Assembly (NCBI GenBank): GCA_048941015.1 | Contig: JBHLNZ010000021.1 | Coordinates: forward strand, 1 to 47,578 | Reading direction: 5' to 3' | DNA from: Promethearchaeota archaeon | GTDB taxonomy: Archaea > Asgardarchaeota > Lokiarchaeia > Sigyniarchaeales > SOKP01 | Length of the DNA stretch: 47,578 nucleotides | Part shown: positions 2,919 to 41,213 of the stretch, piece after piece | Layout of the letters: every line of letters begins with the position of its first letter | Numbering within the stretch: the stretch's first letter is position 1 | The notes under the pieces: generated by a model | What the model was told of the DNA's origin: nothing | Seen by the model: only the letters and a program-made list of their open reading frames with translations | Database searches by the model: none | Position numbers and translations under genes: made by a program

Positions 2919-3060
2919 ATTAATATCATATTTTAGTTATTCTAATGTAGAATTACCAGAAAATAAGGTAAGTTTTACTTATTATATGAGTCAAATTGTA
3001 AATATTAAAATTAAAATTCATTAATTAATTTTATTTTATAATATTTTAAGCCGAAAATTT

Positions 3061-4395: not shown

Positions 4396-4405
4396 TGGAA
4401 CTTTA

Positions 4406-6346: not shown

Positions 6347-6465
6347 AAGAATATCTCGTAAAAATTATAATAAATATTATAATATCTCTTTATAACTTAT
6401 TAAAATTTTAAAATTATTAAATTCTTGAATTTAAAGACTAAGAATCAAAAAATAATGTGAATATT

Positions 6466-7212
6466 CTACTTTTCAAATCCAACTTTAATTGACAGAGAGA
6501 TACTTTCGTCGAAAGCCTGCCCTTCTACGAAACATTTACAAGTCAATTCTTTAGAATTAAAAAGTTCAGTAAAATAACCCAGCCAATATCTTGAATACCT
6601 TTTATCTTGTCTATGTCTAAAAAGTAAATGATATTCATCTTCAGTTTCTTGAGATACGTCAATTGCATAAAAATAATTAGCAACAATCCATATAGTTTTA
6701 ATCGTATTTATAATTTCTTCAATAGTTAGATTCTTTAAAGGCTTCTGGTTGTACCACATAATAATATCAAAAGCAACATTGCTTTTATGAGGCATATCAA
6801 TTGCTTTAGCTGGAGATTCGGCAGCAGCGATAAGTTGATTAAAGGTGGTTTTACCAATGAGCATCATCTTCATCTCTTCTCTCATCCTAATAAAAAGATC
6901 GCGATGCAATTCTTTTTGATCACCATAAAATTTAACTGCTTTTTGTAAGAAAGAAACAACAGATTCGTTATCATCCTTGAATTTATTTATGAAAGCGTGA
7001 ACTTCAGGAGACATTGATTCATAATCATCATACATTTTAATCGCAATTGAAATTAGATTTGAAATTGTCATACCTTTCTCTTCTTTATATTTATCTATAA
7101 TATTTCTCGTTTCTTCTGATACTTTTACAAATAAACTTAATTTTTCTTCAGTTTTTTCATCTGAAGAAGTATCATTCTTTGCTTGATCGGCTTCTTTTGC
7201 CAAGCTATTCAC
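6466..7212 (-). CDS. Putative transcription regulator with an N-terminal ribbon-helix-helix-like domain and a V4R-like C-terminal domain
   Basis: LSLFVKVSEETRNIIDKYKEEKGMTISNLISIAIKMY fits the RHH pattern; GAGGTGA suggests the real start is the TTG at about 7203. Confidence 0.5.
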   Translation of the reverse strand: MNSLAKEADQAKNDTSSDEKTEEKLSLFVKVSEETRNIIDKYKEEKGMTISNLISIAIKMYDDYESMSPEVHAFINKFKDDNESVVSFLQKAVKFYGDQKELHRDLFIRMREEMKMMLIGKTTFNQLIAAAESPAKAIDMPHKSNVAFDIIMWYNQKPLKNLTIEEIINTIKTIWIVANYFYAIDVSQETEDEYHLLFRHRQDKRYSRYWLGYFTELFNSKELTCKCFVEGQAFDESISLSIKVGFEK

Positions 7213-7390
7213 CTCGATCCTACTTTTTAAACATTAAAAAAAAAAATCTTTATCTAATAAAATATAATCCTCAATTGAATATATATACTTTTATATTTTA
7301 AATTTTAATTCTTATAAAAAATTAACATTTCAAAAGACAAGATTGCCGTTTAAAAAATATATTTAAATATACAATTTTTTAATTAATTAA

Positions 7391-7420: not shown

Positions 7421-7566
7421 TTAAACCTTAATATCAGAAGATTAAAACAATTTTGAAGTCAATACGAAAGCTTTAAATATTTACCTATACATAAATATAT
7501 TAGAAGATTATTGGATATATAATTAAATATACTTAAATATATAAAAACAGAAAAAGGAGTCAAAAA

Positions 7567-7977
7567 ATGGAAGGTAGAAATGCAAGCTCAGGATTACTAA
7601 TTTGTATCTTGGTTTTTTTGGGTGCGGGTTTATTTATGACTCTTGGTTTTAATGCTGACTTTTTCTTCTTCGCCCCTTTTTTTCCCGCGATTTTTATATT
7701 TATTATATGTATTATTGCAATTGGTGCCGCATCAAGCAACCGTTCAAGGCAGCGAAGAAATGATCCATATCGATATTCATATTATTATCAAAATCGGAAT
7801 TTACAACAGCAAACTCCAGTAGAAAATCCCTATAAAGTTAAACCAATTGAAATAATCGATGAATCTCCTAAAATAGAAGAAGAAAAAACTATGGAGGTTC
7901 AATTTTGTATGTATTGTGGAGTTAAAATCGATAGAGATGCAGCATATTGCCATCAATGTGGAACAAAATTGAAATAA
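7567..7977 (+). CDS. Two-TM membrane protein with a C-terminal zinc ribbon
   Basis: Two hydrophobic helices, Tyr-rich tail, FCMYCG...YCHQCG; AGGAG RBS. Confidence 0.8.
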   Translation: MEGRNASSGLLICILVFLGAGLFMTLGFNADFFFFAPFFPAIFIFIICIIAIGAASSNRSRQRRNDPYRYSYYYQNRNLQQQTPVENPYKVKPIEIIDESPKIEEEKTMEVQFCMYCGVKIDRDAAYCHQCGTKLK

Positions 7978-8034
7978 TTAAATTATTAATATTTTTGAAT
8001 TAAAATTTAAATATTTGGTGAATATAGAAGAAAA

Positions 8035-8823
8035 ATGAAAAAAAAATGGCAGATTTGTCATAGAATTTTAATAGGTTGTTTATTTATATCGCTATTTTTC
8101 ATAATCACCACCTTTTCCGTTCATTCTAAAACAAATGAACTTGAAAATCAACCAAGAACTTCCAATTCTGGCTGGTCGGGAGGAATTGAGCTTGAGTATA
8201 ACAAATTCTTCGCACCTCATGCAGATGCGTTCAAAAAGATTGATTGGTGGTTCACTAGTTATCCAAATATTTCGTTAATTGTTATGATCCTTGATACGTT
8301 TTACTTTTCCGAATTTTTAACAATAGAAAAAAGTTATGGATTAAATGCTACTGTCTTTGATTTTTACTTTGAAGTTTTTATTGTTGCAAATAGTAGCGAA
8401 AATTCTGGTGAGATAGATCTTTCTTATAATGATCATTGGTATGCCGTCTTTATCAATATCGATGATAATATGAATACATCTCAAGTAGAATTTAGAGTAA
8501 ATTTTGATGTGTATGAGGAAAAATATGTTTACGTGAATCCTATATCAATCATTTACTTGATTTATGGAGTGGGTGTTTCATTAGTTATCATAGCTTTGGT
8601 TATTAGGGCTATTAGAAAGAGAAAAATATTAAACAAACCTATTCCAGTTGTTCCGTATCCTTACATGACTAAAGAGGAGACTATTCCAAAAAATTCTTAT
8701 CTTAAACAAATAGAATTACAGAAAGTAGAGAGTGAACTGCCATTAGCTAAGTATTGTCCATATTGTGGAGAATATCTTGATCGAGACTCTATTTTCTGCC
8801 ATCAATGTGGAAATAAAGTATAA
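8035..8823 (+). CDS. Membrane protein with signal/anchor, external domain, TM helix and cytoplasmic zinc ribbon
   Basis: N-terminal hydrophobic segment, second TM (IIYLIYGVGVSLVIIALVI) followed by RKRK, then YCPYCG...FCHQCG. Confidence 0.8.
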   Translation: MKKKWQICHRILIGCLFISLFFIITTFSVHSKTNELENQPRTSNSGWSGGIELEYNKFFAPHADAFKKIDWWFTSYPNISLIVMILDTFYFSEFLTIEKSYGLNATVFDFYFEVFIVANSSENSGEIDLSYNDHWYAVFINIDDNMNTSQVEFRVNFDVYEEKYVYVNPISIIYLIYGVGVSLVIIALVIRAIRKRKILNKPIPVVPYPYMTKEETIPKNSYLKQIELQKVESELPLAKYCPYCGEYLDRDSIFCHQCGNKV

Positions 8824-8882
8824 TAATTATTATTAAAATTAAAAAGAAAAAGTTCAAAAAGAAAGAAGAAAAGTGAGAGAAA

Positions 8883-9098
8883 GTGGATTTAGACATTGAT
8901 TATGAGAGAAATGGGGCGGAATTCGACGTAGATGCAGATATCGACGTTGATCTCGATGCAGGGGTAGATGTAGATGATAAGTTTGATATGAGTCTAGAAG
9001 CTGAAATTGAAATAGATGTCGATACAGATATAAATATCGATTCTAAAGTCGGGAAGGATTCGCAAGAAATTGTTATTGCCACTACCCCTGCAACTTAA
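8883..9098 (+). pseudogene. Asp-alternating peptide, probably a remnant (or detached loop) of an NfeD-like paralog
   Basis: DxDxD pattern ending in TTPAT*, which matches the TTPAP that follows the Asp-rich loop in 9149..10024; GTG start with an in-frame TGA three codons upstream. Confidence 0.5.
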
Positions 9099-9148
9099 TC
9101 TAAATTTAGAAAATATCAAAATATAATTATAAAAAATGAGGAAAATGT

Positions 9149-10024
9149 ATGGATATATATGATATATTTTTTAGTATATGTTTAGGATTATTTATAGGCG
9201 GAATTATTATGTCGATTATTTCGCTTATTCTTAGTGAAATGTCAACTCATGATCTTCAAGATGCAGATCATATTGATCATTTTGACCATATCGATCACGT
9301 TGATCATATAGACCAGTTCGACCATATTGACCATGTGGATCATATAGACCAGTTCGACCATATAGACCATGTAGATCATATTGACCATGTGGATCATATA
9401 GACCAGTTCGACCATATAGACCATGTAGATCACATTGACCATATGGATCACATAGACCAGTTTGATCATGTAGATCATGTAGACCACATTAACCATGTGG
9501 ATCATTTTGATCATACTGATAATATCGATAATTTGGATAATTCTGACTATTCGGATCATTTAGATCATTATAGTGATACTACTCCTGCACCTTTTATGTT
9601 ATTATTATCGTCATTTTTACTAATTTTTGGGATAACTGGCATTATTTTGTATTATTCAGTTTTTGGTGTAGCTAAATTTATTATTATTTTTGCAACTCCA
9701 ATAATATCTTACGGTAGTACTAAATTAATATCTTATGTATGGAGAAAAATAGCAAAATCCAAATATTACAATATCTCTGCAACATTGAATTTAATTGGGC
9801 GTGATGCGGAGGTTGTTTTAAAGGTAGATGAGATAGGAGGAGTAATAAAGATTCGCTCTGAAACTCCAATGAAGTTCGAAAAATTGCATGCAAAACCCCT
9901 TAAAGAATCAAGTTCTTTTGAGAAGGGAACTAAAGTTTATATTTGTGATATTAAAGATGGTTATTTATTAGTTGATAGTGATCAAAAACTAATTAAACAT
10001 AGGACGATATATCGCAACAGATAA
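9149..10024 (+). CDS. NfeD-like (DUF1449/YqiJ-type) membrane protein with an Asp-His-X repeat loop
   Basis: TM1, repeat loop, TM2-TM3, then OB-fold-like LIGRDAEVVLKV...GVIKI...FEKGTKVYI; directly upstream of an SPFH gene. Confidence 0.8.
   Translation: MDIYDIFFSICLGLFIGGIIMSIISLILSEMSTHDLQDADHIDHFDHIDHVDHIDQFDHIDHVDHIDQFDHIDHVDHIDHVDHIDQFDHIDHVDHIDHMDHIDQFDHVDHVDHINHVDHFDHTDNIDNLDNSDYSDHLDHYSDTTPAPFMLLLSSFLLIFGITGIILYYSVFGVAKFIIIFATPIISYGSTKLISYVWRKIAKSKYYNISATLNLIGRDAEVVLKVDEIGGVIKIRSETPMKFEKLHAKPLKESSSFEKGTKVYICDIKDGYLLVDSDQKLIKHRTIYRNR
9266..9571 (+). repeat. Coding 9-bp tandem repeat of 34 D-H-X-type tripeptides, containing an exact 54-bp tandem duplication (9323-9430)
   Basis: DHI/DHV/DHF/DQF units read directly; 26 His residues in the tract. 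Confidence 0.95.
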
Positions 10025-10130
10025 AAATCAAATTATTTTAAACAATCAGTTAAAAATGAAAGTTCAAAATCTAAAATAAAATGAATAGAGAATAAAAAAA
10101 AAATTAAAAAAAGGAGGTATTGAAAAGCAG

Positions 10131-11306
10131 ATGTTATTTCAACAGGTATATGGCTGGTTGGTAGGCGGAATTATAGCTGGAGTAATCGTATTTTTCTTAT
10201 TTGTAATTTTTTTAGCTACAAGATATCGAAAATTTAAAACGAATCAATTTGTTATCCATTTACGTAATGGTAAGGTAAAAAGTGCTGGACTTGGTGGCAG
10301 TATTTGGTTATTGCCATTAATAGATGAATATATTGTAATTCCTACTACAAGTATTCAAACAATTTTAGAAGCCCACGAGCAAGTAGTTTCGATGGAATAC
10401 CAAAATATTTCAATCGTCGGTATGTTGATTTGGAAAGTAATAGATCCTGAGAAAGCTTTTAGTGCAGTTTCCTGGGTAAATCGAGATGAACATTTCGTTG
10501 AAAAAATACTAAAGAATGCAGCAGAAGCAATTATAAGAACAACATGTGCAAATATGCCACTTGAAAAGATTATTAGAGAACGTCGAGAGATAATTGAACA
10601 TGTAAGTAAAGAATTGCATGAACTTACTGCTGATTGGGGCTTAATAATTGAATCCATAGAAATCCGAGAAGTAAATATATTAGAACCCGATCTGAAAAGG
10701 AATATGGAAGCTACTAAACAGGCAATAGAATTTCGAAAGGCCCGTATAGCTAAAGCTGAAGCAGAAAGGGAATCAAGAATGAGAGAATTAGAAGTTCAAA
10801 ATGAAGTTGGGACACAGGAACAACTAGTACAAAGAGATATTGAAATACGCAGAAAAGAAAAAGAAATTGCGATAGCAGATCAAGAGCGAGAACGTAAAAA
10901 AATTGAGGCAGACGGAGACCGTCAGAAAAAAGTCATTGAAGCAGAAGCCGATGCAGCTTCTATTAAGAAGAAATTAATAGCACAAGCTGAAGGTGAAGCT
11001 GAGACTATAAAACAGCAGATGTTAGCGCAAGCTGAGGGTTTTCAAAAACAAGTAGAAGCGATGTCATCAGCGGATCAGAGATTTTTAGCTGTTCAGTTGA
11101 CTAATATCTTACCCGAAATATTTAAAAATATTAATCCAGAGAAGATGTTTATTATGGGAACCGGCGATGAAGCTTTTAGTGCTTTATCAAGAGCAATACT
11201 CCCATTCTTACAGCTTGTGCCAGAGTATTCCGATAAAATAAAAAGATTTCTAGGAACTAGCGATTTAACTAATATCAAAGAATTAGTAAGTAATATTTCA
11301 AAATAA
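10131..11306 (+). CDS. SPFH/Band-7 flotillin-like protein
   Basis: N-terminal TM, SPFH core (WKVIDPEKA...IRTTCANMPLEKII.ER...WGLIIESIEIREV), AEA-rich coiled coil; GGAGG RBS. Confidence 0.92.
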   Translation: MLFQQVYGWLVGGIIAGVIVFFLFVIFLATRYRKFKTNQFVIHLRNGKVKSAGLGGSIWLLPLIDEYIVIPTTSIQTILEAHEQVVSMEYQNISIVGMLIWKVIDPEKAFSAVSWVNRDEHFVEKILKNAAEAIIRTTCANMPLEKIIRERREIIEHVSKELHELTADWGLIIESIEIREVNILEPDLKRNMEATKQAIEFRKARIAKAEAERESRMRELEVQNEVGTQEQLVQRDIEIRRKEKEIAIADQERERKKIEADGDRQKKVIEAEADAASIKKKLIAQAEGEAETIKQQMLAQAEGFQKQVEAMSSADQRFLAVQLTNILPEIFKNINPEKMFIMGTGDEAFSALSRAILPFLQLVPEYSDKIKRFLGTSDLTNIKELVSNISK

Positions 11307-11312
11307 TCAATA

Positions 11313-11322
11313 TTTTTTTTTT
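11313..11322 (+). terminator. Oligo-T tract, a possible archaeal terminator after the SPFH gene
   Basis: T10 run 7 nt after the stop codon; T runs are common in this AT-rich DNA. Confidence 0.35.
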
Positions 11323-11376
11323 AAATTTATTTATTAAAAAGTTCTTTTTTATTAACAAGAACAAAGAAAAAGGTGA

Positions 11377-12318
11377 ATGAACTTGGTTGAAAAATTTGAA
11401 GAGTTATTAATTAAAGGGAATATGGAATTTCAATGGAAGATAAAGCAAGAAACAGAAGATATGAAATTAATTTCAAAAAAAATTCCAAAATATCCGGTGT
11501 TAATACTAACTTGTATGGACCCTCGAATTGATGTTCATCGCATCTTTCAGTTAAAGCCAGGTGATGTTTTTGTGTTGAGAAATGCAGGAAATGGCTTCAC
11601 AGACGACGTGTTAAGATCTATTTTAATTGCAATTCATGAATATAATGTTAGGAATATCATTATTTTAGGACATATTGATTGTGGAATGACTAAAATAAAT
11701 CTAATTCAATTAGGCCAGAAATTATCAAAACCAGCCTTAGCAAGAATTCTTCGTGATGGTACAAATATTCAAATTGAGTTGCAGAAGTATTTTAAAACTT
11801 TTATCGATGAGATACAGAATATAAAAATTCAGGTTGAAAGAATAAGAAAAGCGCCTGAAATTCCTTCAGGTATATTGGTAACTGGAATGCTATATGATGT
11901 GAATTCACATTGGGTATTTGAATATGAGAAATTTAGTAAATATACTTTGATTGAGAATTTTATGCGAAACTATAAAGAATTTGTAGAAGCAAAGAAGTAT
12001 GATTTTATTGATTATATTGAGTCGATTGAAGGGGAAATTGTTGGAAAGAAAGAACTTCAGAATTATAAAGATAGAATGCCTGAAAGTATAGAAATTGAAA
12101 AGGACCAAATTAAGAATGAATTAATTAATAAAGCATCAGAGACAATTGAAATATCAGAAATATTGCCTGAGGAACAAAAATCCTTTAAAGAATTTGATGA
12201 ATTAGTTGAAATAGTTCAAAAGCAACTTACTTCTATTCCAAAAATCCAAATTCCAAAAATAATTATCCCTAAAGTTAAAGTCTATATACCAGAAATTTAT
12301 AAGAAAAAAGAAGATTAA
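11377..12318 (+). CDS. Beta-class carbonic anhydrase with a long C-terminal extension
   Basis: Zn ligand motifs TCMDPR and GHIDCG, plus VLRNAG; tail IPKIQIPKIIIPKVKVYIPEI. Confidence 0.9.
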   Translation: MNLVEKFEELLIKGNMEFQWKIKQETEDMKLISKKIPKYPVLILTCMDPRIDVHRIFQLKPGDVFVLRNAGNGFTDDVLRSILIAIHEYNVRNIIILGHIDCGMTKINLIQLGQKLSKPALARILRDGTNIQIELQKYFKTFIDEIQNIKIQVERIRKAPEIPSGILVTGMLYDVNSHWVFEYEKFSKYTLIENFMRNYKEFVEAKKYDFIDYIESIEGEIVGKKELQNYKDRMPESIEIEKDQIKNELINKASETIEISEILPEEQKSFKEFDELVEIVQKQLTSIPKIQIPKIIIPKVKVYIPEIYKKKED

Positions 12319-12477
12319 AGAATTAAACCGATATGGTTAAGGTTATCAAGTTATAATACTTTTTCTATAGAAGTAATTTCAGTAGAAAGCAACAAGATTT
12401 CTCGAATTTTAGAATTCTTTAATTAAATATTATAATTATTATTTTATATTTCTAAATTAAAAATTAAATGAAATGCA

Positions 12478-13146
12478 TTGATTCAATATATATTTTTAAC
12501 GCTGTTTTTCTTATTTGGAATTATAGAAATCTATGGTGAAGTTAAAAACATCTTTAAAATTACAATCTCACTTAGATGTGTAATGATGCCTTTACTTATT
12601 CTCTTTTATTTTTTTGCAGTACCATTTAATATCGACTGGTTCATTGTTATCGCTTTACTTTTTGGTCTTGGAGGGGATATTTTTTTAGGACTTAGAAATA
12701 AGGAAAAGTGGTTTATATTTGGGATGGTATCGTTTCTTTTTAATCAGGTATTTTATATTATCTCCTTTTTCTTATCTATAACCGATATTACAGATTTTCC
12801 ACTAGAAGGCTTGTTTCTAATTATACCTGTAATGCTGATATTGTTCATCAATTTACCTAAGTTTATAAATAAGACAGCAGAAATGAAAATTCCTGTATTG
12901 GTATATATGGCGACAATTTTATTGATGCACATAGCAGCTTTATTAAGATTAGCAGATTATTCAGGGCTATCTTTTATTTTAATATATTTAGGGTCATTAT
13001 TTTTTATTTTATCTGATTCTTTTGTCGCAATGGAAACATTCGGTGAGAAGTTTCCAAGAATTGAGGTTGTAAGTATGTCAACATACTTCTTAGCACAATT
13101 TTATATAACACTGGGTGCAGTGATGACAAGTTTGTTGATACTTTAA
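12478..13146 (+). CDS. Lysoplasmalogenase / YhhN (TMEM86) family membrane protein
   Basis: ALLFGLGGDIFL, FIFGMVSFL, PVLVY, GSLFFILSDS, MSTYFLAQ. Confidence 0.88.
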   Translation: MIQYIFLTLFFLFGIIEIYGEVKNIFKITISLRCVMMPLLILFYFFAVPFNIDWFIVIALLFGLGGDIFLGLRNKEKWFIFGMVSFLFNQVFYIISFFLSITDITDFPLEGLFLIIPVMLILFINLPKFINKTAEMKIPVLVYMATILLMHIAALLRLADYSGLSFILIYLGSLFFILSDSFVAMETFGEKFPRIEVVSMSTYFLAQFYITLGAVMTSLLIL

Positions 13147-13207
13147 TTTAAATAAAACACATTTTTTTTTAATTTTAAAATAAAATTTTTCAATAACTAA
13201 AAATTTC

Positions 13208-13220
13208 AAAAGTTATAAGT
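13208..13220 (+). promoter_or_regulatory. Candidate BRE/TATA promoter of the tRNA pair
   Basis: AAAAG-TTATAAGT about 35-45 nt upstream of mature tRNA-Thr. Confidence 0.35.
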
Positions 13221-13253
13221 GATTTTTATTAATAATTAAATTAATTAAAACCC

Positions 13254-13326
13254 GCCTCTGTTGCTTAGCAGGTAGAGCGTTGCCTTGGTAAGGCAAAGGT
13301 CGGGGGTTCAAATCCCCCCAGGGGCT
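13254..13326 (+). tRNA. tRNA-Thr(GGT)
   Basis: Acceptor stem GCCTCTG/CAGGGGC, D arm GCTT..GAGC, anticodon arm TTGCC-TTGGTAA-GGCAA, T arm GGGGG-TTCAAAT-CCCCC; CCA not encoded. Confidence 0.97.
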
Positions 13327-13351
13327 AAAAATTAAGTATGTGTAAAATGGA

Positions 13352-13484
13352 GCCGGTGTGGCTTAGTTGGTTATAAAGTCTATTTGAAATTAGACTTAAT
13401 AGGCACCAGACTCATAATCCATCTGAAAAATTGGGTCAGAAAGATGAACTCTGGAGGTCGTGGGCTCATATCCCACCACCGGCA
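13352..13484 (+). tRNA. tRNA-Met(CAT), elongator type, with two introns (about 13376-13402 and 13418-13449)
   Basis: Acceptor stem GCCGGTG/CACCGGC-A; anticodon arm CCAGA-CTCATAA-TCTGG after intron removal; both insertions fold into bulge-helix-bulge/loop motifs. Confidence 0.88.
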
Positions 13485-13594
13485 TTATTCCTTTAAATTT
13501 TTTTTAATATTATTGTAAACTTTTAAATAGGATGCTCACACTAATTGATTTACTTCAAATCCAATTTTTAAAAAAAAAATAGAGGTAATTGATT

Positions 13595-13918
13595 ATGGTA
13601 ATATTAATTTCAACTACTAAATTTCCTCTTTCTAAAGCAAAAGCGGTAGCAGAAAGATATATTGAGGTTTCAAAAAAGTATCCTCCTGATAAGTCCTTAG
13701 AGAAGCATATTCTCCGTATGGCTGCAAGGATTAGAGGAGATGAAGTTGAGTCTATCACTGTTTCAGAAGTGAAGGAGGGTAAATTAGCAGAAGTATTAAA
13801 AAGAGGAATAGAACAACAACTATTATACTCTGATATTGAGGGAATGAAATTTAAAGTAGACACTTACTTCTCAGGGACAGAAGCTTTAGCAATGGTGGGC
13901 CTTAAAATGCCTGAATAA
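13595..13918 (+). CDS. Hypothetical protein (small alpha/beta fold)
   Basis: Clean ORF with GAGGT RBS before the ATG at 13595; no motif recognised. Confidence 0.7.
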   Translation: MVILISTTKFPLSKAKAVAERYIEVSKKYPPDKSLEKHILRMAARIRGDEVESITVSEVKEGKLAEVLKRGIEQQLLYSDIEGMKFKVDTYFSGTEALAMVGLKMPE

Positions 13919-13995
13919 TATTTTAATTTTAATAACTATTTTTTTTCCTATAAATCTAATTTAAGAGAATTAAATTTCTGTTAAGAGCATTTTTA

Positions 13996-14994
13996 TCAAA
14001 AATTGAAGTTACCATTTCTAATCAAGGTTTTTTGTGAACCATCTTTATAAGTAACTTTCATTGTTGGTTTATAAAATAAGAAATCCCTATGAGTACGAGA
14101 TTTATTTTGTCCCCCGTCCATTTCTTCATTATTACCGAAGGCGATATGAGCCGTTTGAAGAGCTTTTTCATCCTCAAGCAAAATCCCACGTATTTTAGCA
14201 CCCGGGTTAAGTCCAATCCCTAGTTCTCCAATTATTTTTGCTTCTTCATCCAAATTAATTAGTTTTTCAACAATTCTAACCAATTCTTTATTATCACTTT
14301 CAAGATCTATAATTTTTCCATTTTTTACTTGAATTTTTAGAGGTTTCTTAATTTTACCTAAATCACCTATAGAACCATCACAAACAATAATACCATCACC
14401 TTTTGATTCAATAGGTCCACACCATATTTCTCCACAAGGTAAATTAGCAAAGTATGGTAATTTAGTAATTTTAGTATCGGTAGAAAAAGCTCGATCTTCT
14501 ATACATAAAACGATGTCAGTTCCTCCTGGTGCTAAAATGTGTACATTTTTAGCATTTTCAAAATTTTTAATTAACCTATGTCCTGTGTCTACCATCATTT
14601 CATAATCAACATCCATAGGGCCATCTATCATCATTGATTTAGTAATCCCTGCTCCATGTCCTAATCGAATTTTATTAGTAGCAAGAACTTTTTTTCCCCA
14701 TTTGAGTCGAAATGGAGTTTCATCACTTAATCCTTTAAAAACATTAATAACAATTGTTTTTCCTAATAGTAACTCATCCATTTCTTTAGGTATTTCTGAT
14801 AAAGGTCGCTTATTTTCGGGTAAGAGATATAACTGTGCTGGACAGCCAAATTCAGTTGCTGCACTATAAAAAGCATCTCCAACATTTTTAGTTGATTGAT
14901 CAGACACAACTAAAACCGCATCTTGTTCATTCAAGTTCAATACATGAATCATAGCATTCAGAGCGGAAGTTATCATTTTTAGGATTTCACTCAT
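13996..14994 (-). CDS. Peptidase M29 (aminopeptidase T/II-like)
   Basis: GGTDI, NLPCGEI, IGELGIGLNP, LLEDEK, HIAFGNN, HRD. Confidence 0.9.
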   Translation of the reverse strand: MSEILKMITSALNAMIHVLNLNEQDAVLVVSDQSTKNVGDAFYSAATEFGCPAQLYLLPENKRPLSEIPKEMDELLLGKTIVINVFKGLSDETPFRLKWGKKVLATNKIRLGHGAGITKSMMIDGPMDVDYEMMVDTGHRLIKNFENAKNVHILAPGGTDIVLCIEDRAFSTDTKITKLPYFANLPCGEIWCGPIESKGDGIIVCDGSIGDLGKIKKPLKIQVKNGKIIDLESDNKELVRIVEKLINLDEEAKIIGELGIGLNPGAKIRGILLEDEKALQTAHIAFGNNEEMDGGQNKSRTHRDFLFYKPTMKVTYKDGSQKTLIRNGNFNF

Positions 14995-19900: not shown

Positions 19901-20053
19901 ATTATCTTTTTTGTAAATCATTAGTATAAAACGTTGTACCCATAATTTGCACAAATTAATTTTTTAGATAAAAATTTATTAACATTTAACCTATTATTAT
20001 AGTAAAGTTACTTTCAATATAATCACTGAGAAAATTTTTGGTTGAGAATATAT

Positions 20054-20905
20054 ATGGGTACTCAAGTTTTTCTTATAAATCCAGATGGAACCACAACTGA
20101 AATAAAATCTGAAGGGTCAATTAAAGATGTTTTAAAAACTGAAGATTGCTATGTTCTAGTTTCTGATGATATTAGGAAGGTATATCTATGGAAAGGATTG
20201 GAGAGCAATGTGAGATCAAAGTTTATTGGTGCCAAAAGGAGCCAAGAAATACGTGGACAAGTCGGTATGCATTATGCAGTTGTTCCCCAGGATGAAGGGG
20301 ATGAAGAAGCTGAATTTTTAAAATTAATAGGCGGGAAGACAGAAGGAGGTATAGCTAAAGAAATAAAAGCAGAACAAGCGTCTGTTGCTAAACCTGCCCC
20401 ATCAGTTCACCCACTGAGGGAAAAGGATACTTTTGGAGCTCCAAAGCCAGCCCAAGGTATGAATATTGCTGGAAGTAGAGATCGTATTGCTCAAAATACA
20501 GGCCCCTTATATAGAGGACAAGAATCTATGTCTATGCTCATGGAGGACGAGGTTAAAATAAATTTTGAACAAATAATGCAAAAATTGGAAGAAATTAAAA
20601 TGCCTGATGGATTTGAAAGGGAATTAATAATTATTGGAAATCATGCTTATTCAGTTGTAGAGAGAGTACAGACCTTCTTAGGAGAGAAACAAGTAACTAA
20701 AGAAATATCGAAGGTAGGAGCTGTCCCTGAGGGAATCTTTTTTGCTGAAGATTATTCTCCAAGAATTTTATCAGAAAATGGTAAAATTCTAGCTATAGAA
20801 TTCTTAAAACGGACAACTGGACCAAAAGATACTACAGTTGAATTCAAATCTAAAAAAGAAATTTTAAAAGATCAAATAAAAACTCAGCTTGAAGGTAAAA
20901 AATAG
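20054..20905 (+). CDS. Single gelsolin-domain protein with an additional C-terminal domain (Asgard Gel-X type)
   Basis: LKTEDCYVLV...VYLWKG..SNVRSKFIGA...DEGDEEAEFLKLIG matches the gelsolin repeat consensus; ATG at 20054 preferred over TTG at 20042. Confidence 0.82.
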   Translation: MGTQVFLINPDGTTTEIKSEGSIKDVLKTEDCYVLVSDDIRKVYLWKGLESNVRSKFIGAKRSQEIRGQVGMHYAVVPQDEGDEEAEFLKLIGGKTEGGIAKEIKAEQASVAKPAPSVHPLREKDTFGAPKPAQGMNIAGSRDRIAQNTGPLYRGQESMSMLMEDEVKINFEQIMQKLEEIKMPDGFERELIIIGNHAYSVVERVQTFLGEKQVTKEISKVGAVPEGIFFAEDYSPRILSENGKILAIEFLKRTTGPKDTTVEFKSKKEILKDQIKTQLEGKK

Positions 20906-21122: not shown

Positions 21123-21512
21123 ATGAGCGATTTAACTCCAGAAGAAGCACATTCATTATCAAAATTTCTTGGGAATATTACTGAACATACTGAACTGGAG
21201 GCTCTTGCCTTAGTGACACGTGATGGTTTACGTCTTGCTTTTTCTTGCATTCCAGATTATGAAGTCGATCCGGATCTATTTTCAAGTCTAAGTGCTGTAG
21301 TAATGCAAAGCGGACAGGATGCTATTGATTCTCTGGGTTATACTCATTTATTGGAAGTAGTTTTAAGAGGCGCAGATGCTTTTATTATTTTGAGTGCTGC
21401 TGGGAGATTCTTCTTAATGGGTGCAAGTAGAAAAATTGAAGATTTAGGTAAAATTGTAACGGTTTTTAGATATTATGCTGGAGAAATCGGGAAACGCTAC
21501 CCTCTAACATAA
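21123..21512 (+). CDS. Roadblock/LC7 (MglB-like) domain protein
   Basis: ALALVTRDGL...DPDLFSSLSA...LG...LLEVVLRG..AFIILSAAG. Confidence 0.88.
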   Translation: MSDLTPEEAHSLSKFLGNITEHTELEALALVTRDGLRLAFSCIPDYEVDPDLFSSLSAVVMQSGQDAIDSLGYTHLLEVVLRGADAFIILSAAGRFFLMGASRKIEDLGKIVTVFRYYAGEIGKRYPLT

Positions 21513-21626: not shown

Positions 21627-23819
21627 ATGAGCGAAATCAAAATTTTTGTTGATGTAAATGAAGGTACCTCAAATAAAGTTGTTATTTGCCAAGAGAACGC
21701 AAACAAGTTAGGACTTTCCGAAGGTGCTTCAGTTGAAGTTGAAAATCCTGATAATAATAAAAAAGCCACTGCAACTATAGAAATTTCGAATATGGTTTTA
21801 GATTTTGCGGGACAGGTTTCAAAGAATGTTGTTGACGAATTGGAATTTGATGGTATTGAATTAATTATTCGTCCTGTTAGTAGTACTGGTCTAGCAGCTC
21901 CTAAATTACAGATACCGAAAGTTCCAACACCCAGACCGATTCCTACAACCCAACCAGGAATTTCCCAACAATCATCATTAACTCCATTACCCACACCTCC
22001 GCCTCAACCTATGCCAACTAGGCCAACACCTCAACCTAAACCGGCACCTACACCACAAGCAACACCTATACCTGCTCATCAACCAGTTCCAAAACCTATT
22101 CCTCAACCTATGCCTATGCCTACTCCAACACCTCCACCACAGTATACTCCAGCACCTCCAGCACCTACACCAGCACCTATCCCTCGAGTTGCTCCAATAC
22201 CACCACCCCAACCAACGTATGATCAAGCTCCTACACAAGACTATAGTGTATCTTCTGTTCCTGCAGAACCATACCCTAATAAAATAGATGTCTATATGTT
22301 GCAAACTCAAAAGAATGGTATTGTTCTTAAACCCGTTGTTGATGATAATCTTGAAGGAGGAAGAGTACAAGTGAGTTCTTCCGTTATTCAACAATTAGGA
22401 CTTGCTCCAGGATTACTAATTGCCTGGGAAGATCCTTTAACTCGTTCTATAGGCTCTGCTAGAATAGATCAAGCAATGGTTAATCCAGGTGAGATAAGAA
22501 TGAGTAGAGATACAAAAGAAGATACAAATATCCAAGCTCAACAAATTGTAATTTATTCGACTGAACCTCCAATTCATAAAGCATCAGAATTAATGCTTGA
22601 AGTTCAATCTCAACCAAATTTAATGGGTTATTGTTTAGTTGGGCCTCGTACAATGTATACACTATCTATTAAACAAGATGATGTTCTTGCATTTGAGGAT
22701 GAACTTACAGGGGCTATAGGCGCTGGTAAAGTGGAAATTTCGGATGCCGTTCCACCTAATAGTATTGTTATCGATAGTGAGATATTAGAAGCATCTGGTA
22801 TAGGAAGCTTTGAAGTTAAAGTTTCTAAAAATCTCCGTCCTATTATTCCATTACAAAATATTGCTCTTGGTATTTCTCCAATTTCAGGAGAAAATATGTG
22901 GGAAATCATAAGTACTGCTCGACAAAATGTGGATTCGTTAAAAGGATGGTTATCAAATTATATCATCTTTAAAGGAATCAAGTTGAGATGGAATGCGGTA
23001 AACATAGCATGTTCAATAATCAGAACGGTTCCAGACTTGACTGGGGATGTCTTTGCCCAAATTACACCAAATACCGCAATAAATTTAACGCCCACCGGAT
23101 TAATACCCTTTAATGCAATTCTTATTATTGATATTAGTAGGAGCATGATGGCAAGAGATGTTTATGTGACTAATATTGCTCCTGCAATAGAAGGAATAAA
23201 AGCAGCTATGGAATCTCGAGAAATTCAAGAATTTCTAAAACATTTCAAAGCTGGAATCAATATCCCAAGAAGAATTTCAGCAGCTTTTGCAGCGGTTTTG
23301 TTTTTAAGTGAAAAAGTTGGGAGAGGTTTTGGTGAAAAGGTCTCAATTATAAGATTTGCAGATGAAGCACAAGTATTACCTTTTGGTGGTGGTTTCTATA
23401 TGGATTCTGCTAGTGGAAAGAAAGGAATTCTTGAAGATGCAGCACGTATGATCGTTGATCGAATAGGAAATGCTTATGGACAAGCTACCAATATGGGTCA
23501 AGCTATGATTAAAGCTCATCAAGTTTTAGCTGAGTTTGAAAAGATGAGTCCGGATCAGCCAACAATGATCGTACTCTTAACGGATGGGATCCCTACGGAT
23601 GGAGATGATTTCTTCAAATCAGTTAAAGGTTTTGCTGAGAATCCGAATGTGGTCATTTATATAGTTGGACTAGGAAATCCTGATGATGAATTAATGATTA
23701 GAGCAGCATCGTTATGTGGTGGAGAATACTTTAAACCGGAGGATGCAGGTGAACTATTGATATGGTATTCTAAACGAGCAAGAGATCTTACAGTTAAGTT
23801 GAAGGCGCATAAAGGTTAA
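21627..23819 (+). CDS. Multidomain protein: CDC48-N-like barrel, Pro-rich linker, two more barrels, CDC48_2-like domain and vWA
   Basis: Intact MIDAS (DISRS...ATN...LLTDG); three repeats of the V.I....A..LGL..G..V pattern; about 110-aa P/T/Q-rich tract. Confidence 0.8.
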   Translation: MSEIKIFVDVNEGTSNKVVICQENANKLGLSEGASVEVENPDNNKKATATIEISNMVLDFAGQVSKNVVDELEFDGIELIIRPVSSTGLAAPKLQIPKVPTPRPIPTTQPGISQQSSLTPLPTPPPQPMPTRPTPQPKPAPTPQATPIPAHQPVPKPIPQPMPMPTPTPPPQYTPAPPAPTPAPIPRVAPIPPPQPTYDQAPTQDYSVSSVPAEPYPNKIDVYMLQTQKNGIVLKPVVDDNLEGGRVQVSSSVIQQLGLAPGLLIAWEDPLTRSIGSARIDQAMVNPGEIRMSRDTKEDTNIQAQQIVIYSTEPPIHKASELMLEVQSQPNLMGYCLVGPRTMYTLSIKQDDVLAFEDELTGAIGAGKVEISDAVPPNSIVIDSEILEASGIGSFEVKVSKNLRPIIPLQNIALGISPISGENMWEIISTARQNVDSLKGWLSNYIIFKGIKLRWNAVNIACSIIRTVPDLTGDVFAQITPNTAINLTPTGLIPFNAILIIDISRSMMARDVYVTNIAPAIEGIKAAMESREIQEFLKHFKAGINIPRRISAAFAAVLFLSEKVGRGFGEKVSIIRFADEAQVLPFGGGFYMDSASGKKGILEDAARMIVDRIGNAYGQATNMGQAMIKAHQVLAEFEKMSPDQPTMIVLLTDGIPTDGDDFFKSVKGFAENPNVVIYIVGLGNPDDELMIRAASLCGGEYFKPEDAGELLIWYSKRARDLTVKLKAHKG
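21900..22233 (+). repeat. Coding Pro-rich low-complexity tract (PTP/PQP/PIP units)
   Basis: Read directly from the translation. Confidence 0.85.
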
Positions 23820-24510: not shown

Positions 24511-24912
24511 ATGAAGGAAGTAAAAGTACTATCGATAGACGATCGTGGCAGGATCGTAATTCCTCAAATAATAAGAAAATCTCTCGGTCTAACCACAAAC
24601 TCTCAATTAATAATGGTAAGCGATTCAGAAACAAAAGAAATAAAAATCACTCCTATAGGATTAGGTGGAGAGAAAATTCCAATTAAATTAAGAATTACTA
24701 TGAAAGATATACCGGGAGCTCTAGCTAAACTTGCGACAACTTTCGGAGAGCATGGTCTAAGTATGATGTATAGTGAAGCTGTAATAGTAGAGAAGGATAA
24801 GAAAGCTGTATGGACTGTTATTTCTGAAAGCCCCAGCAATTTAAATGAATTAAAAGAAACTTTAAAAGAGAAGGGAGAAGCAATAGAAGTTGAAGTTTTA
24901 CCTTTAGAATAG
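24511..24912 (+). CDS. AbrB/SpoVT-type DNA-binding protein fused to an ACT domain
   Basis: SIDDRGRIVIPQIIRKSLGL and MKDIPGALAKLATTFGEHGL. Confidence 0.88.
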   Translation: MKEVKVLSIDDRGRIVIPQIIRKSLGLTTNSQLIMVSDSETKEIKITPIGLGGEKIPIKLRITMKDIPGALAKLATTFGEHGLSMMYSEAVIVEKDKKAVWTVISESPSNLNELKETLKEKGEAIEVEVLPLE

Positions 24913-24944
24913 TATAAAAAAATAATAAAAACAACCGCAATTTA

Positions 24945-25673
24945 ATGGCAAAAAAAAAAAAGAAGGATAAAGAAAAAGATCCTATTTCAGAATATTCATT
25001 AGACAGTACATTAAAATCCTCGAAAAAAACCAAAACAGATTTACAGGGATTATTAAGAGGATTTTCTGAAGAGAAAGGATTTGGAGCACCGAAAGAAGAA
25101 GAAAGAATAAAGCCCCAATTATCATATGAGAGTAAGAAACAAATTGCTGAAGATTATATAATGGAAGATATTCCTCTCAGTGAGAGAGAGAAGATAAAAG
25201 AAGAAAAAATTAAATTAGAGTCCGTAGAAGAAAAAGTAGTAGAGCTTAAGAAAGATGAAGAATCTTCTTCCAAACCAATAAGTACTAAAGAAAAACCTTC
25301 TTTTTCGAAGAAAGATGATATCTATTTAAAGTTATCAAATTTTTTTGAAGAACTTTTTGTGGGTTATAATGAACGTTATGACAGATGGGAGAACTCAGTT
25401 TCAGCGTTACTTGCAATTTTAAGAAAAATGAGAAAAATAACTAAAAAAAATACTGAAGATTTAGTCTCAACAATCAATAATCAATATGAAAAAATACAAA
25501 AGAACCTTGAAGAATTTAAAATTAAGCGAGATGAGATAGAAAAAATCTCAGATGTAGATATCGAAATAATGTCAAGTGAATTTAAAAAAGTTTTGGGGTT
25601 ATTAGAACTTCAAGTCAAAGAATACCAATTAAAGAAATTAACTGATGAGTATATTCATCAATATAAACTATAA
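24945..25673 (+). CDS. Hypothetical protein with a disordered charged N-half and a coiled-coil C-half
   Basis: Lys-rich start, E/K-rich linker and helical heptad-rich C-terminus. Confidence 0.75.
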   Translation: MAKKKKKDKEKDPISEYSLDSTLKSSKKTKTDLQGLLRGFSEEKGFGAPKEEERIKPQLSYESKKQIAEDYIMEDIPLSEREKIKEEKIKLESVEEKVVELKKDEESSSKPISTKEKPSFSKKDDIYLKLSNFFEELFVGYNERYDRWENSVSALLAILRKMRKITKKNTEDLVSTINNQYEKIQKNLEEFKIKRDEIEKISDVDIEIMSSEFKKVLGLLELQVKEYQLKKLTDEYIHQYKL

Positions 25674-25728
25674 GCTTCTAGTAATAGGATAAGTTCGGTT
25701 TTATAAACAAGTTAATAGAAGTATTATT

Positions 25729-26883
25729 ATGAGTTTCCCCAATAAAGATCAGTTACGTCCTTTAATTCTTAATATCGGAAGTAATACTTTCAAAATGGGT
25801 TGGGCAGGAGATGATTTTCCCGATATTATCGCTCCAAGCATATATGTTGATGTTTCTGATTACCTATATACTTCAGATGTAATTGACGGCTTAGAAGAGA
25901 TTTATATTAATGAGGAAACTCAAAACCATTTGGTTGGACATCAAGCATTAAAATATCAAGATATCTTAAAAATTCACGAATTTAAAAAAGAAAAGAATTA
26001 TAATTTGCTTACTAAATTTTTTTATTATTATTATAACCAATTAAAAATATCTTTAGAATTACAATATAGGCAGCCACTAATTATACTTTTACCTTTTTTT
26101 AGTTCAGAATTAGAAAAAACTAAATTACAAGAAATTTTTTTCGAATCCTGTAATTTTCCAGCTATTTTATTTTTAGATGAAGCTCAAGCTATATTATCTA
26201 CATTAGACAAGTCTAGTGGAGTGATTATAAATATTGGAGAATCAAATACGTATATCTCTACAATATTTCATGGTTTTACGAATATAATGGCCCGAGATCT
26301 TTTTCCTGTAGCTGGGAAGGAATTAACAAATTATCTATTAAATTTAATTTTAGCAAGGAAAAGTTTAGTAAAAAATGTACATGTTGATAAAACTATAGCA
26401 AAAGAAGTTAAAGAAAAGTTATCTTTATGTCTTATAGATCCAGATACTGAAAAAAAAAGAGTTAAAGAAGGTTTAACTAAATATGATCGTACTATAGATC
26501 TACCAGATGGTTCTAGTTTAAAAATAAATTTAGAACGTTTTTTATTGGCAGAACCCCTATTTAATCCAAAACTTATACATATCGATTATATTGGATTAGC
26601 GGAAGCAGTATCTAAAGTGGTAAAATCCTGGGAGAGAGAAAACTGGGAAGATTTAGTGTCTAATGTTATTTTAGCAGGTGGAGGAAGTTTAATATCTGGT
26701 CTTGATCGAAGATTAGAATTGGAATTAAAAAATTTCTTTTCAGAAAGATTAAAGCCAAAAATAAAAGTAGTTGCTGCTTCAGGTCGAGAGAATATGGGTT
26801 GGATTGGAGCATCAATTCTTTATTCGAAGGGGCAATTACAAAAAGGTTGGGTTAAAAATCCTAATTTAGAAAATACAATTTAG
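25729..26883 (+). CDS. Actin-related protein (divergent Asgard Arp)
   Basis: NIGSNTFKMGWAGDDFP, AGKELTNYL, IAKEVKEKL, LPDG...ERFLLAEPLFNP, NVILAGGGSLISGLDRRL and WIGASIL are all colinear with actin. Confidence 0.95.
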   Translation: MSFPNKDQLRPLILNIGSNTFKMGWAGDDFPDIIAPSIYVDVSDYLYTSDVIDGLEEIYINEETQNHLVGHQALKYQDILKIHEFKKEKNYNLLTKFFYYYYNQLKISLELQYRQPLIILLPFFSSELEKTKLQEIFFESCNFPAILFLDEAQAILSTLDKSSGVIINIGESNTYISTIFHGFTNIMARDLFPVAGKELTNYLLNLILARKSLVKNVHVDKTIAKEVKEKLSLCLIDPDTEKKRVKEGLTKYDRTIDLPDGSSLKINLERFLLAEPLFNPKLIHIDYIGLAEAVSKVVKSWERENWEDLVSNVILAGGGSLISGLDRRLELELKNFFSERLKPKIKVVAASGRENMGWIGASILYSKGQLQKGWVKNPNLENTI

Positions 26884-26946
26884 TAAGAAGAAAAATGAGA
26901 GAATTATTTAAATAATTATTAAAAAATGAATAGATAATGCTTTAAA

Positions 26947-39151: not shown

Positions 39152-39194
39152 AAAAATTACCTTTTTTAATAATAAACAAAATAGAATAATAATA

Positions 39195-41213
<2,019 letters not shown>

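What the first reader, a model, noticed from the sequence alone, without database searches (positions are those of the whole stretch)
21627..23819. Unusual architecture: three CDC48/NSF N-domain-like barrels plus vWA with no AAA ATPase
Seen: repeats NKVVICQENANKLGLSEGASVEV, GRVQVSSSVIQQLGLAPGLLIAW and GYCLVGPRTMYTLSIKQDDVLAF, each followed by a second-half motif (e.g. PGEIRMS, PNSIVID). A CDC48_2-like segment ending QITPNTAINL follows, then a MIDAS-intact vWA, with no Walker motifs. Known: N-domains are the adaptor/substrate-binding parts of p97/NSF/PEX1, and vWA domains often serve AAA+ ATPases as adaptors. Inference: a stand-alone adaptor or decoy linking p97-type cofactors to MIDAS-captured substrates. 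I do not recognise it as a named family.
Basis: partly seen in the sequence, partly recalled or inferred. Interest (0 to 1): 0.72.

Follow-up and report, generated by a model that had tools for sequence, protein, structure and literature searches.

The report
Asgard ATPase-less Cdc48N-vWA docking protein
This Lokiarchaeial (Asgard) gene encodes a protein with three Cdc48-type barrels and a metal-binding vWA domain but no ATPase motor. It belongs to an unnamed Asgard-only family that travels with an amide ligase and a metal hydrolase, and its core layout is otherwise seen only at the front of the eukaryotic nutrient-signalling scaffold DEPDC5.

Summary

The roughly 410-aa core occurs in 253 of 400 Asgard genomes sampled, and all 80 loci recovered elsewhere are Asgard. 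Its conserved partners are not Cdc48 or ubiquitin genes. They are an Amidohydro_2-type metal hydrolase and a YbdK/GCS2-type ligase. The evidence is adjacency, natural hydrolase-core fusions, and a family-by-family phyletic pattern identical to the ligase's.

In this genome that enzyme set sits on another contig. Here the gene follows a gelsolin-X gene and a Roadblock gene.

The best whole-protein fold matches are DEPDC5/Iml1 (NTD+SABA), but there is no sequence-level support for homology.

I read it as a non-catalytic docking subunit; its function is untested. Earlier notes of this scan found the same family on Thorarchaeota DNA.

The parts
21627..23819 (+). Whole ORF, 730 aa: an ATPase-less Cdc48N-vWA protein, the Lokiarchaeial long form
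   Evidence: ORF list. Homologues at 82-100% identity are all named only 'VWA domain-containing protein'. It is single-copy in its own genome.
21627..21881 (+). N1, first double-psi beta-barrel (residues 1-85)
   Evidence: hhalign to N3 gives 98.5%, E 1.8e-15. pLDDT is about 97, with the b-b-a-b-b-b-a-b pattern. There is a weak Pfam Molydop_binding hit. It was not fold-searched alone.
21885..22253 (+). Disordered proline-rich linker (residues 87-209; 46 of 123 residues are Pro)
   Evidence: pLDDT is below 50 across residues 87-209. A Pro-rich stretch is present in 114 of 115 three-barrel homologues.
22290..22559 (+). N2, second double-psi beta-barrel (residues 222-311)
   Evidence: hhalign to N3 gives 99.8%. 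There is a weak Pfam CDC48_N hit at residues 243-308. pLDDT is above 95.
22587..22829 (+). N3, third double-psi beta-barrel: the Nn half of a complete Cdc48/p97-type N domain (residues 321-401)
22845..23093 (+). Beta-clam (CDC48_2-like): the Nc half of the N domain (residues 407-489)
   Evidence: It lies inside the same structural match, model residues 115-289 against p97 residues 21-190. It has no sequence-level hit and is unrelated to the barrels.
23112..23783 (+). vWA domain (residues 496-719), joined to the clam with no linker
23130..23144 (+). MIDAS motif D502-I-S504-R-S506 (with T621 and D653)
   Evidence: Read from the sequence. The columns are nearly invariant and kept in 83 of 84 stand-alone members.
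21123..21512 (+). Upstream neighbour: Roadblock/LC7 gene, 114 nt before the ORF
   Evidence: Pfam Robl_LC7 E 2.6e-6. It lies next to the gene only in two Lokiarchaeial families, f1 and f3.
20042..20905 (+). Upstream neighbour: gelsolin-X gene
   Evidence: Pfam Gelsolin E 7.8e-4, below the cut-off. Its orthologue lies beside the family's gene in Lokiarchaeial f1 and f3 and in Freya/Jordarchaeia.

Best explanation
The gene encodes a cytoplasmic, non-catalytic docking protein of an Asgard-specific family.

Shown here. The ancestral unit of about 410 aa is a complete Cdc48/p97-type N domain (a double-psi barrel plus a beta-clam) fused directly to a MIDAS-intact vWA domain, which sits where Cdc48 has its ATPase. 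In Lokiarchaeia, including this genome, two more copies of the barrel and a long proline-rich disordered linker were added in front.

Inferred. The vWA domain uses its MIDAS metal to grip an acidic group on a partner or substrate. The N domain and the extra barrels offer further peptide-binding surfaces. Together they hold a metal amidohydrolase (A), and probably a YbdK/GCS2-type ATP-dependent carboxylate-amine ligase (B) with its companion protein (C), on a common target. That would make a ligase/hydrolase pair that adds and removes an amide-linked group.

Local context. In this genome the three enzyme-module genes lie on another contig. The docking gene has stayed beside a gelsolin-X gene and a Roadblock gene, which hints that the target lies in the actin or small-GTPase regulatory sphere.

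The chemistry and the target are unknown.
For: Anatomy comes, as set out in the observation check.

Distribution:
- The family is found in 253 of 400 Asgard genomes. The long form occurs in the window's own class at 55-97% identity. The short form of 440-500 aa occurs in other classes.
- All 80 loci from a scan of 185,579 species are Asgard.

Coupling to A:
- An Amidohydro_2-like gene lies directly upstream on the same strand, within 400 nt, of 64 of 127 family ORFs. It lies within 10 kb of 103 of 127.
- 41 natural A-core fusions of about 885 aa exist in Thorarchaeota.
- Stand-alone A keeps all its metal ligands in 72 of 72 cases, and stand-alone cores keep MIDAS in 83 of 84. The fusions have lost both sets together.

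Coupling to B:
- B matches the YbdK structures 1r8g and 1tt4 at E 6e-10.
- B lies within 10 kb of 68 of 127 family ORFs.
- Its family-by-family presence and absence across 400 Asgard genomes is the same as that of the docking protein: present in f1-f8, f16, f18, f20, f21 and f30, and absent in f9-f15, f17, f19 and f22-f29.

Own genome: C-B-A is present on contig C12.

Gelsolin-X: its orthologue sits next to the module in two classes, in different arrangements.
Against: - No binding, metal dependence or enzyme activity was tested.
- In this genome and across its whole family f1 the gene is not next to A, B or C. For this copy the link therefore rests on phyletic co-occurrence and on relatives.
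- Related genomes are not independent, so the adjacency and co-occurrence counts overstate the support.
- The hydrolase and ligase could be small-molecule enzymes, with the vWA protein serving their assembly rather than any protein-tagging cycle.
- The roles of the two extra barrels and the proline-rich linker are unexplained.
Confidence: 0.55

Rival explanations
1. Archaeal relative of the DEPDC5/Iml1 front half. On this reading the Cdc48N-vWA core is homologous to the NTD+SABA module of the GATOR1/SEACIT scaffold. In Lokiarchaeia it would work as a platform for Roadblock/longin proteins that regulate small GTPases.
For: - With the full-length model, DEPDC5/Iml1 chains are the top Foldseek matches (9xzy E 1.9e-11; also 9o5e, 9v0j, 8adl, 8ae6, 8fw5, 7t3a/b).
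- Those matches cover 417-437 aligned columns at rmsd 6.7-8.3 A and TM 0.28-0.30. p97 N-D1 chains give TM 0.19 and rmsd of about 20 A.
- A review describes the DEPDC5 NTD as NSF-N-like and SABA as Sec23-like, and says the combination is found in no other protein (PMC8534245).
- A Roadblock gene lies 114 nt upstream. A second, LAMTOR3-like Roadblock follows C-B-A in the same genome.
- NPRL2-like longin proteins have been reported in Asgard archaea (bioRxiv 10.1101/2020.10.19.343400).
Against: - Pfam IML1 (PF12257) finds nothing at the family's loci. No hit passes the cut-off in any of 400 Asgard genomes, and the weak hits lie elsewhere.
- The family profile does not reach any DEPDC5 chain among its best 60 PDB matches.
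- Taken one at a time, each domain is closer to p97 N or to the TFIIH p44, ArnB and Rpn10 vWA domains than to DEPDC5.
- There are no SHEN, DEP or CTD domains.
- Roadblock adjacency is confined to two Lokiarchaeial families.
Confidence: 0.15
2. The protein is a stand-alone adaptor or decoy. Its N domains bind p97-type cofactors (UBX, ubiquitin-like, SHP or VIM motifs), and its vWA domain captures substrates, feeding or competing with the genome's Cdc48 machines.
For: - The N domain matches p97 N across both halves, which together form the cofactor-binding cleft.
- A few distant members start with a ubiquitin-like domain: Pfam ubiquitin in 2 of 63 members and TUG-UBL1 in 1.
- The genome has three canonical Cdc48 genes.
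Against: - No Cdc48, ubiquitin, E1/E2/E3 or UBX-like gene recurs beside the family in the 97 loci examined.
- The recurrent partners are a hydrolase and a ligase.
- Sequence identity to p97 N is only about 11%, so conservation of the cofactor cleft is not shown.
Confidence: 0.12
3. Actin-regulatory scaffold specific to Lokiarchaeia. The proline-rich linker recruits profilin-actin, as eukaryotic FH1 or WASP/VASP proline tracts do. The protein would then act with the neighbouring gelsolin-X protein.
For: - The linker is 123 residues long and 37% proline, and a Pro-rich stretch is kept in nearly all three-barrel homologues.
- The gelsolin-X gene is conserved upstream in families f1 and f3, and lies beside the module in Freya/Jordarchaeia.
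Against: - The short-form relatives lack the linker, yet in Freya/Jordarchaeia they still sit near gelsolin-X.
- No profilin gene lies in the neighbourhood.
- Proline-rich spacers are common and need not bind anything.
- Nothing was tested.
Confidence: 0.1
4. MoxR-type vWA adaptor. Like CbbO, NorD, CoxE or ViaA, it would bridge an AAA+ ATPase to a metalloenzyme, here the amidohydrolase, for activation or metal insertion.
For: It has a MIDAS-intact vWA domain and a conserved metalloenzyme partner. The comparison with MoxR-system adaptors rests on general knowledge.
Against: Pfam finds no AAA+ or MoxR gene among the neighbours in the window. None appears among the recurrent neighbour clusters of the 97 loci.
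Confidence: 0.05

Closest known systems
N domain of Cdc48/p97/VAT, NSF and Pex1 (Pfam CDC48_N + CDC48_2)
   Different: No AAA+ D1/D2 domains follow. A vWA domain sits in their place with no linker. Two extra barrels are present. The window protein falls below Pfam's CDC48_N cut-off (16.7 against 35.1 bits).
DEPDC5 / Iml1 (Sea1), NTD + SABA half, of GATOR1/SEACIT
   Same: It has the same order of an NSF/Cdc48-N-like domain followed by a vWA/Sec23-trunk-like domain. DEPDC5/Iml1 is the best Foldseek match for the whole protein (domain description from PMC8534245).
   Different: There is no sequence-level signal, and no SHEN, DEP or CTD domains. The MIDAS is intact and conserved here. The conserved partners are a hydrolase and a ligase rather than NPRL2/3. 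The match falls below single vWA domains in rigid-body alignment.
Intracellular vWA adaptors: ArnB/vWA2 of Sulfolobus, TFIIH p44/Ssl1, proteasome Rpn10
   Different: None of them carries a Cdc48-type N domain, and their partners differ (ArnA FHA/zinc-ribbon, TFIIH p34, the proteasome lid).
Ufd1 UT3 domain (from memory: a Cdc48-N-like fold without an ATPase)
   Same: It is an ATPase-less protein that carries the Cdc48 N-domain fold and is used for binding.
   Different: It was not compared here. Ufd1 has no vWA domain and works as a Cdc48 cofactor.

Membership tests
Cdc48/p97-type N domain (CDC48_N PF02359 + CDC48_2) | Double-psi beta-barrel followed by a beta-clam | tested here: met
Cdc48/p97-type N domain (CDC48_N PF02359 + CDC48_2) | Score above Pfam's gathering cut-off for CDC48_N | tested here: not met
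   The window protein scores 16.7 bits against a cut-off of 35.1. Nine of 63 family members hit at E <= 0.01, the best at 3.8e-7.
Cdc48/NSF/Pex1 AAA+ ATPases | AAA+ domain(s) with Walker A and B motifs after the N domain | tested here: not met
   No Walker A or B pattern was found. No AAA Pfam hit was found. The residues after the N domain fold as a vWA domain.
vWA domain with MIDAS (PF00092) | Pfam VWA above its cut-off, with D-x-S-x-S, T and D present | tested here: met
   36.1 bits against 23.8. D502, S504, S506, T621 and D653 are present and kept in 83 of 84 stand-alone members.
vWA domain with MIDAS (PF00092) | Metal-dependent ligand binding | not testable with these tools
   This needs biochemistry.
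DEPDC5/Iml1 (Pfam IML1 PF12257) | Sequence match to the IML1 model | tested here: not met
   No hit in the window's own genome at E <= 10. None of 400 Asgard genomes scores over the cut-off, and the weak hits do not lie at the family's loci.
DEPDC5/Iml1 (Pfam IML1 PF12257) | NTD (NSF-N-like) followed by SABA (vWA/Sec23-like) in one rigid unit | tested here: inconclusive
   DEPDC5/Iml1 chains are the top Foldseek matches, covering about 420 columns at rmsd 6.7-8.3 A. They are not among the top 50 in VIA alignment.
DEPDC5/Iml1 (Pfam IML1 PF12257) | SHEN, DEP and C-terminal domains | tested here: not met
   The protein ends 11 residues after the vWA domain, and Pfam finds no DEP domain.
MoxR-associated vWA adaptors (CbbO, NorD, CoxE, ViaA type) | Adjacent MoxR-class AAA+ gene | tested here: not met
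   Pfam finds none among the window's neighbours. None appears among the recurrent neighbour clusters.
Asgard hydrolase / Cdc48N-vWA / ligase gene set (undescribed; found in earlier notes of this scan) | Core of N domain plus MIDAS-intact vWA, with the amidohydrolase and GCS2-type ligase in the same genome | tested here: met
   The core is shown. C-B-A lies on contig C12 of the same genome. The phyletic pattern is identical across families.
Asgard hydrolase / Cdc48N-vWA / ligase gene set (undescribed; found in earlier notes of this scan) | Amidohydrolase gene directly upstream of the docking gene | tested here: not met
   Here the upstream genes are Roadblock and gelsolin-X. The hydrolase is directly upstream for 64 of 127 relatives, but for none in the window's own family f1.

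The most novel reading that the evidence does not exclude
The Asgard Cdc48N-vWA family is the archaeal ancestor of the NTD-SABA module of DEPDC5/Iml1. On this reading the scaffold of the eukaryotic GATOR1 nutrient-signalling complex was built from an Asgard docking protein that already worked beside Roadblock and longin proteins. In archaea that protein served a ligase/hydrolase pair which adds and removes an amide-linked tag.
Probability: 0.15. Interest if true: 0.9.

Novelty: new variant of a known kind. Interest (0 to 1): 0.66.

Why it matters
Cdc48-type N domains are known as the substrate and cofactor-binding heads of AAA+ unfoldases. Here the same head is widespread in Asgard archaea with a metal-binding vWA domain in place of the motor.

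A review states that the only described protein with this layout is DEPDC5/Iml1, and that its domain combination occurs nowhere else. If the two are related, part of the eukaryotic TORC1 nutrient-sensing machinery gains an archaeal root.

Whether or not they are related, the family marks an undescribed Asgard-wide gene set: a docking protein, a metal hydrolase, an ATP-dependent amide ligase and a companion protein. Its chemistry and target are unknown and can now be tested in cultured Lokiarchaeia. In Lokiarchaeia the gene lies next to gelsolin and Roadblock genes, which points the search for a target towards the cytoskeleton and small-GTPase regulators.

Tried and rejected
Gene context was taken from the genome search, the fetch from genomes and the search for related loci instead.
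It worked with the 7-member alignment A7.
- Single-sequence searches gave only weak barrel hits: Pfam, NCBIfam and PDB sequence searches.
- The 730-aa ORF at 30359-32551 is an unrelated N6-methylase. The equal length is a coincidence.
- The ESM Atlas search returned only vWA clusters.
- Pfam IML1 found nothing relevant.
- Profiles of the partner proteins against PDB sequences: the ligase hits YbdK. The hydrolase gives only E of about 0.4 to Amidohydro_2 structures, although Pfam is clear (1.5e-18). Protein C hits nothing.
- A Roadblock HMM found no Roadblock gene beside the family outside Lokiarchaeial families f1 and f3.
- Paper searches found no description of this family and no DEPDC5 homologue in Asgard archaea.
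- Considered and set aside: an AbrB/MazE-like swapped-hairpin reading of N1 (E 0.016-0.05 only; the predicted topology is that of a full double-psi barrel), and a secreted or membrane adhesin (no signal peptide or hydrophobic segment).
Full report
**What is in the window**

The ORF at 21627-23819 (+) is open for 730 codons. It lies in AT-rich DNA of about 30% G+C. The surrounding genes mark an Asgard archaeon:
- a gelsolin-domain gene (20042-20905);
- a Roadblock/LC7 gene (21123-21512);
- an actin-family gene (25729-26883);
- a CHAT-like gene and an Arf-like GTPase gene.

The closest database proteins are 82-100% identical. They come from MAGs labelled Promethearchaeota, Loki-, Hod-, Hermod- or Heimdallarchaeota. 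Their only name is 'VWA domain-containing protein'. The gene is single-copy in its genome.

**Checking the observation**

The three repeat regions are homologous:
- BLASTP finds N2 against N3 at E 1.3e-4.
- Profile-profile comparison gives N1~N3 98.5% (E 1.8e-15), N2~N3 99.8% and N1~N2 94%. The segment after N3 is unrelated to the barrels.

So N3 plus the following 'CDC48_2-like' segment is a complete Cdc48-type N domain. A profile of the family also reaches yeast Cdc48 (residues 42-117, E 1.5e-4) and a designed Cdc48-derived barrel (E 2.8e-5) by sequence alone.

The full-length model (pLDDT 86) shows the following:
- N1 (residues 1-85), N2 (222-311) and N3 (321-401) have the same strand/helix order at pLDDT of about 97.
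- Residues 87-209 are disordered. They are 37% proline.
- The vWA domain (496-719) starts immediately after the clam, with no linker.

The vWA domain passes Pfam's cut-off. The MIDAS residues D502, S504, S506, T621 and D653 are present and nearly invariant in the family. No Walker A or B pattern and no AAA family hit exist.

N1 and N2 were not fold-searched alone. Their fold rests on homology to N3 and on the predicted topology.

**The family**

A search of 1.8 billion representative proteins with residues 225-730 found 143 relatives. Most are 410-500 aa and match only N3 + clam + vWA. A census of the fetched proteins gives 115 with three barrels, 14 with two and 55 with one; 114 of the three-barrel proteins also carry a proline-rich stretch. 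The one-barrel protein of about 410 aa is therefore the core, and the Lokiarchaeial protein is an extended form.

The core is found in 253 of 400 Asgard genomes:
- at 55-97% identity as long forms in the window's own class;
- at 36-42% identity as one to four short paralogues in other classes;
- not at all in several families, for example 0 of 31, 0 of 19 and 0 of 12.

A pattern scan of one genome for each of 185,579 prokaryote species returned 80 loci, all Asgard: Freya-, Jord-, Thor-, Hermod- and Promethearchaeota. The search patterns were family-specific, so very distant relatives elsewhere are not excluded.

**Gene context**

Upstream of the gene, the order NnrDE, gelsolin-X, Roadblock is kept in the window's family f1 and in a second family of the same order, f3. 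The gelsolin-X proteins there are only 38-50% identical.

Beyond f1, an all-against-all comparison of neighbouring ORFs showed three recurrent partners:
- A, about 505 aa. Pfam Amidohydro_2 at E 1.5e-18.
- B, 500-1190 aa. Pfam GCS2. Its profile hits the YbdK structures 1r8g and 1tt4 at E 6e-10.
- C, which matches no known family.

Over 127 family ORFs in 97 loci:
- A lies directly upstream on the same strand, within 400 nt, of 64.
- A lies within 10 kb of 103.
- B lies within 10 kb of 68.

Thorarchaeota loci hold two paralogues of the docking gene, each with its own A gene.

Forty-one ORFs of about 885 aa are natural fusions of A with the core. Stand-alone A keeps its metal ligands (D, HxH, K, H, H, D) in 72 of 72 cases. 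Stand-alone cores keep MIDAS in 83 of 84 cases. The fusions have lost both sets together. This co-loss suggests that the MIDAS site and the hydrolase active site serve one function.

Across 400 Asgard genomes, the family-by-family presence and absence of B equals that of the docking protein. Related genomes are not independent, so this is supporting evidence and not a statistical proof.

In the window's own genome, C, B and A lie together on contig C12. They are followed there by a coiled-coil protein and a second Roadblock protein, which also matches the LAMTOR3/MP1 family.

A gelsolin-X orthologue sits beside the A, core, B, C cluster in Freya/Jordarchaeia as well. The gelsolin-X link is therefore older than the split of the cluster seen in this genome. 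Roadblock adjacency is confined to Lokiarchaeial f1 and f3.

**Comparison with DEPDC5**

With the full-length model, the top Foldseek matches are DEPDC5 and its yeast orthologue Iml1/Sea1:
- 9xzy at E 1.9e-11, and also 9o5e, 9v0j, 8adl, 8ae6, 8fw5 and 7t3a/b;
- 417-437 aligned columns, rmsd 6.7-8.3 A, TM 0.28-0.30 normalised to all 730 residues.

They rank above p97 N-D1 chains, whose two domains superpose poorly (TM 0.19, rmsd of about 20 A).

A review states that the DEPDC5 NTD resembles the N domain of Sec18/NSF and that SABA resembles a Sec23 domain. [quoted passage not shown] The archaeal core therefore shares that layout.

Homology is not shown, for these reasons:
- Pfam IML1 finds nothing at the family's loci in this genome or in 400 Asgard genomes.
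- The family profile does not reach DEPDC5 among its best PDB matches.

The one paper in the library that mentions both DEPDC5 and Asgard archaea reports NPRL2-like longin proteins but no DEPDC5 relative.

**Mechanism**

I commit to a non-catalytic docking subunit.

Shown here:
- the fold of each part, the intact MIDAS and the absence of an ATPase;
- the adjacency, the gene fusions and the phyletic coupling to a metal hydrolase and an ATP-dependent amide ligase.

Inferred:
- The MIDAS metal binds an acidic group of the hydrolase's substrate, or of the hydrolase itself.
- The N domain and the extra barrels bind peptides.
- The ligase and the hydrolase add and remove an amide-linked group.
- In Lokiarchaeia the long form ties this to the gelsolin and Roadblock neighbours.

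I put about 0.55 on the docking-subunit reading.

**Novelty**

The folds are known. The combination, the family and its gene set are described in no paper I could find.

Earlier notes of this scan reached the same family, the same partners and the same DEPDC5 look-alike on Thorarchaeota DNA. They also noted the C-B-A set on this genome's other contig. I read those notes only after obtaining the DEPDC5 match and the partner genes myself. I re-tested the fusion and dead-site claims.

What this window adds is the Lokiarchaeial form. It has three barrels and a proline-rich linker, is unlinked from the enzymes, and lies next to gelsolin-X and Roadblock genes.

Noticed in passing
L050 (own genome, contig C12): C 7648-9474, B 9485-11176, A 11230-12768, coiled coil 12926-14140, Roadblock 14301-14750: The ligase/hydrolase gene set that accompanies this protein family elsewhere lies on another contig of the same genome. 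It is followed by a 404-aa coiled-coil protein and a second Roadblock/LC7 protein, which also matches the LAMTOR3/MP1 family (MAPKK1_Int, 30.7 bits, above the cut-off).
   Followed up: partly
L073:1772-4393 (-), L093:5658-8276 (-), L099:5602-8265 (-) and 38 more Thorarchaeota/Hermodarchaeota loci: Natural fusions of about 885 aa join the amidohydrolase to the Cdc48N-vWA core. In them both the hydrolase metal ligands and the MIDAS residues are replaced. The stand-alone copies next to them keep all of these residues.
   Followed up: yes
Proteins P0143, P0159, P0201, P0204, P0208 (distant family members): Some short-form members begin with a ubiquitin-like domain (Pfam ubiquitin in 2 of 63 members, best E 9.4e-6; TUG-UBL1 in 1) ahead of the barrel, clam and vWA.
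   Followed up: no
L136 (Freyarchaeia chromosome): gelsolin-X 2544-3425 (-), A 4352-5812, core 5908-7368, B 7442-11017 (-), C 11028-11819 (-): A gelsolin-X orthologue lies beside the complete hydrolase, docking, ligase and C cluster in a different Asgard class. The gelsolin-X link seen in the window is therefore not confined to Lokiarchaeia.
   Followed up: partly
window 35306-36238 (-) and 34079-34699 (+); also L036:5252-6217 (+): A protein with an IFT52-type GIFT domain (E 2.2e-12) lies beside an Arf-like small GTPase gene. In another Lokiarchaeial family a GIFT-domain gene sits directly upstream of this protein's homologue.
   Followed up: no
window 24511-29535 (+): Downstream lie an AbrB-ACT protein, a Lys/Glu-rich protein, a divergent actin-family protein and a large CHAT-like protein. 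The same four genes follow the homologue in a related genome (L045). Earlier notes of this scan cover them.
   Followed up: no
window 36692-41207 (-): Bacterial-type DNA gyrase subunits A and B are encoded in tandem in this archaeal contig.
   Followed up: no
window 30359-32551 (+): A second ORF of exactly 730 aa is an N6-adenine DNA methylase-like protein. It is unrelated to the protein studied (BLASTP E 0.31).
   Followed up: yes
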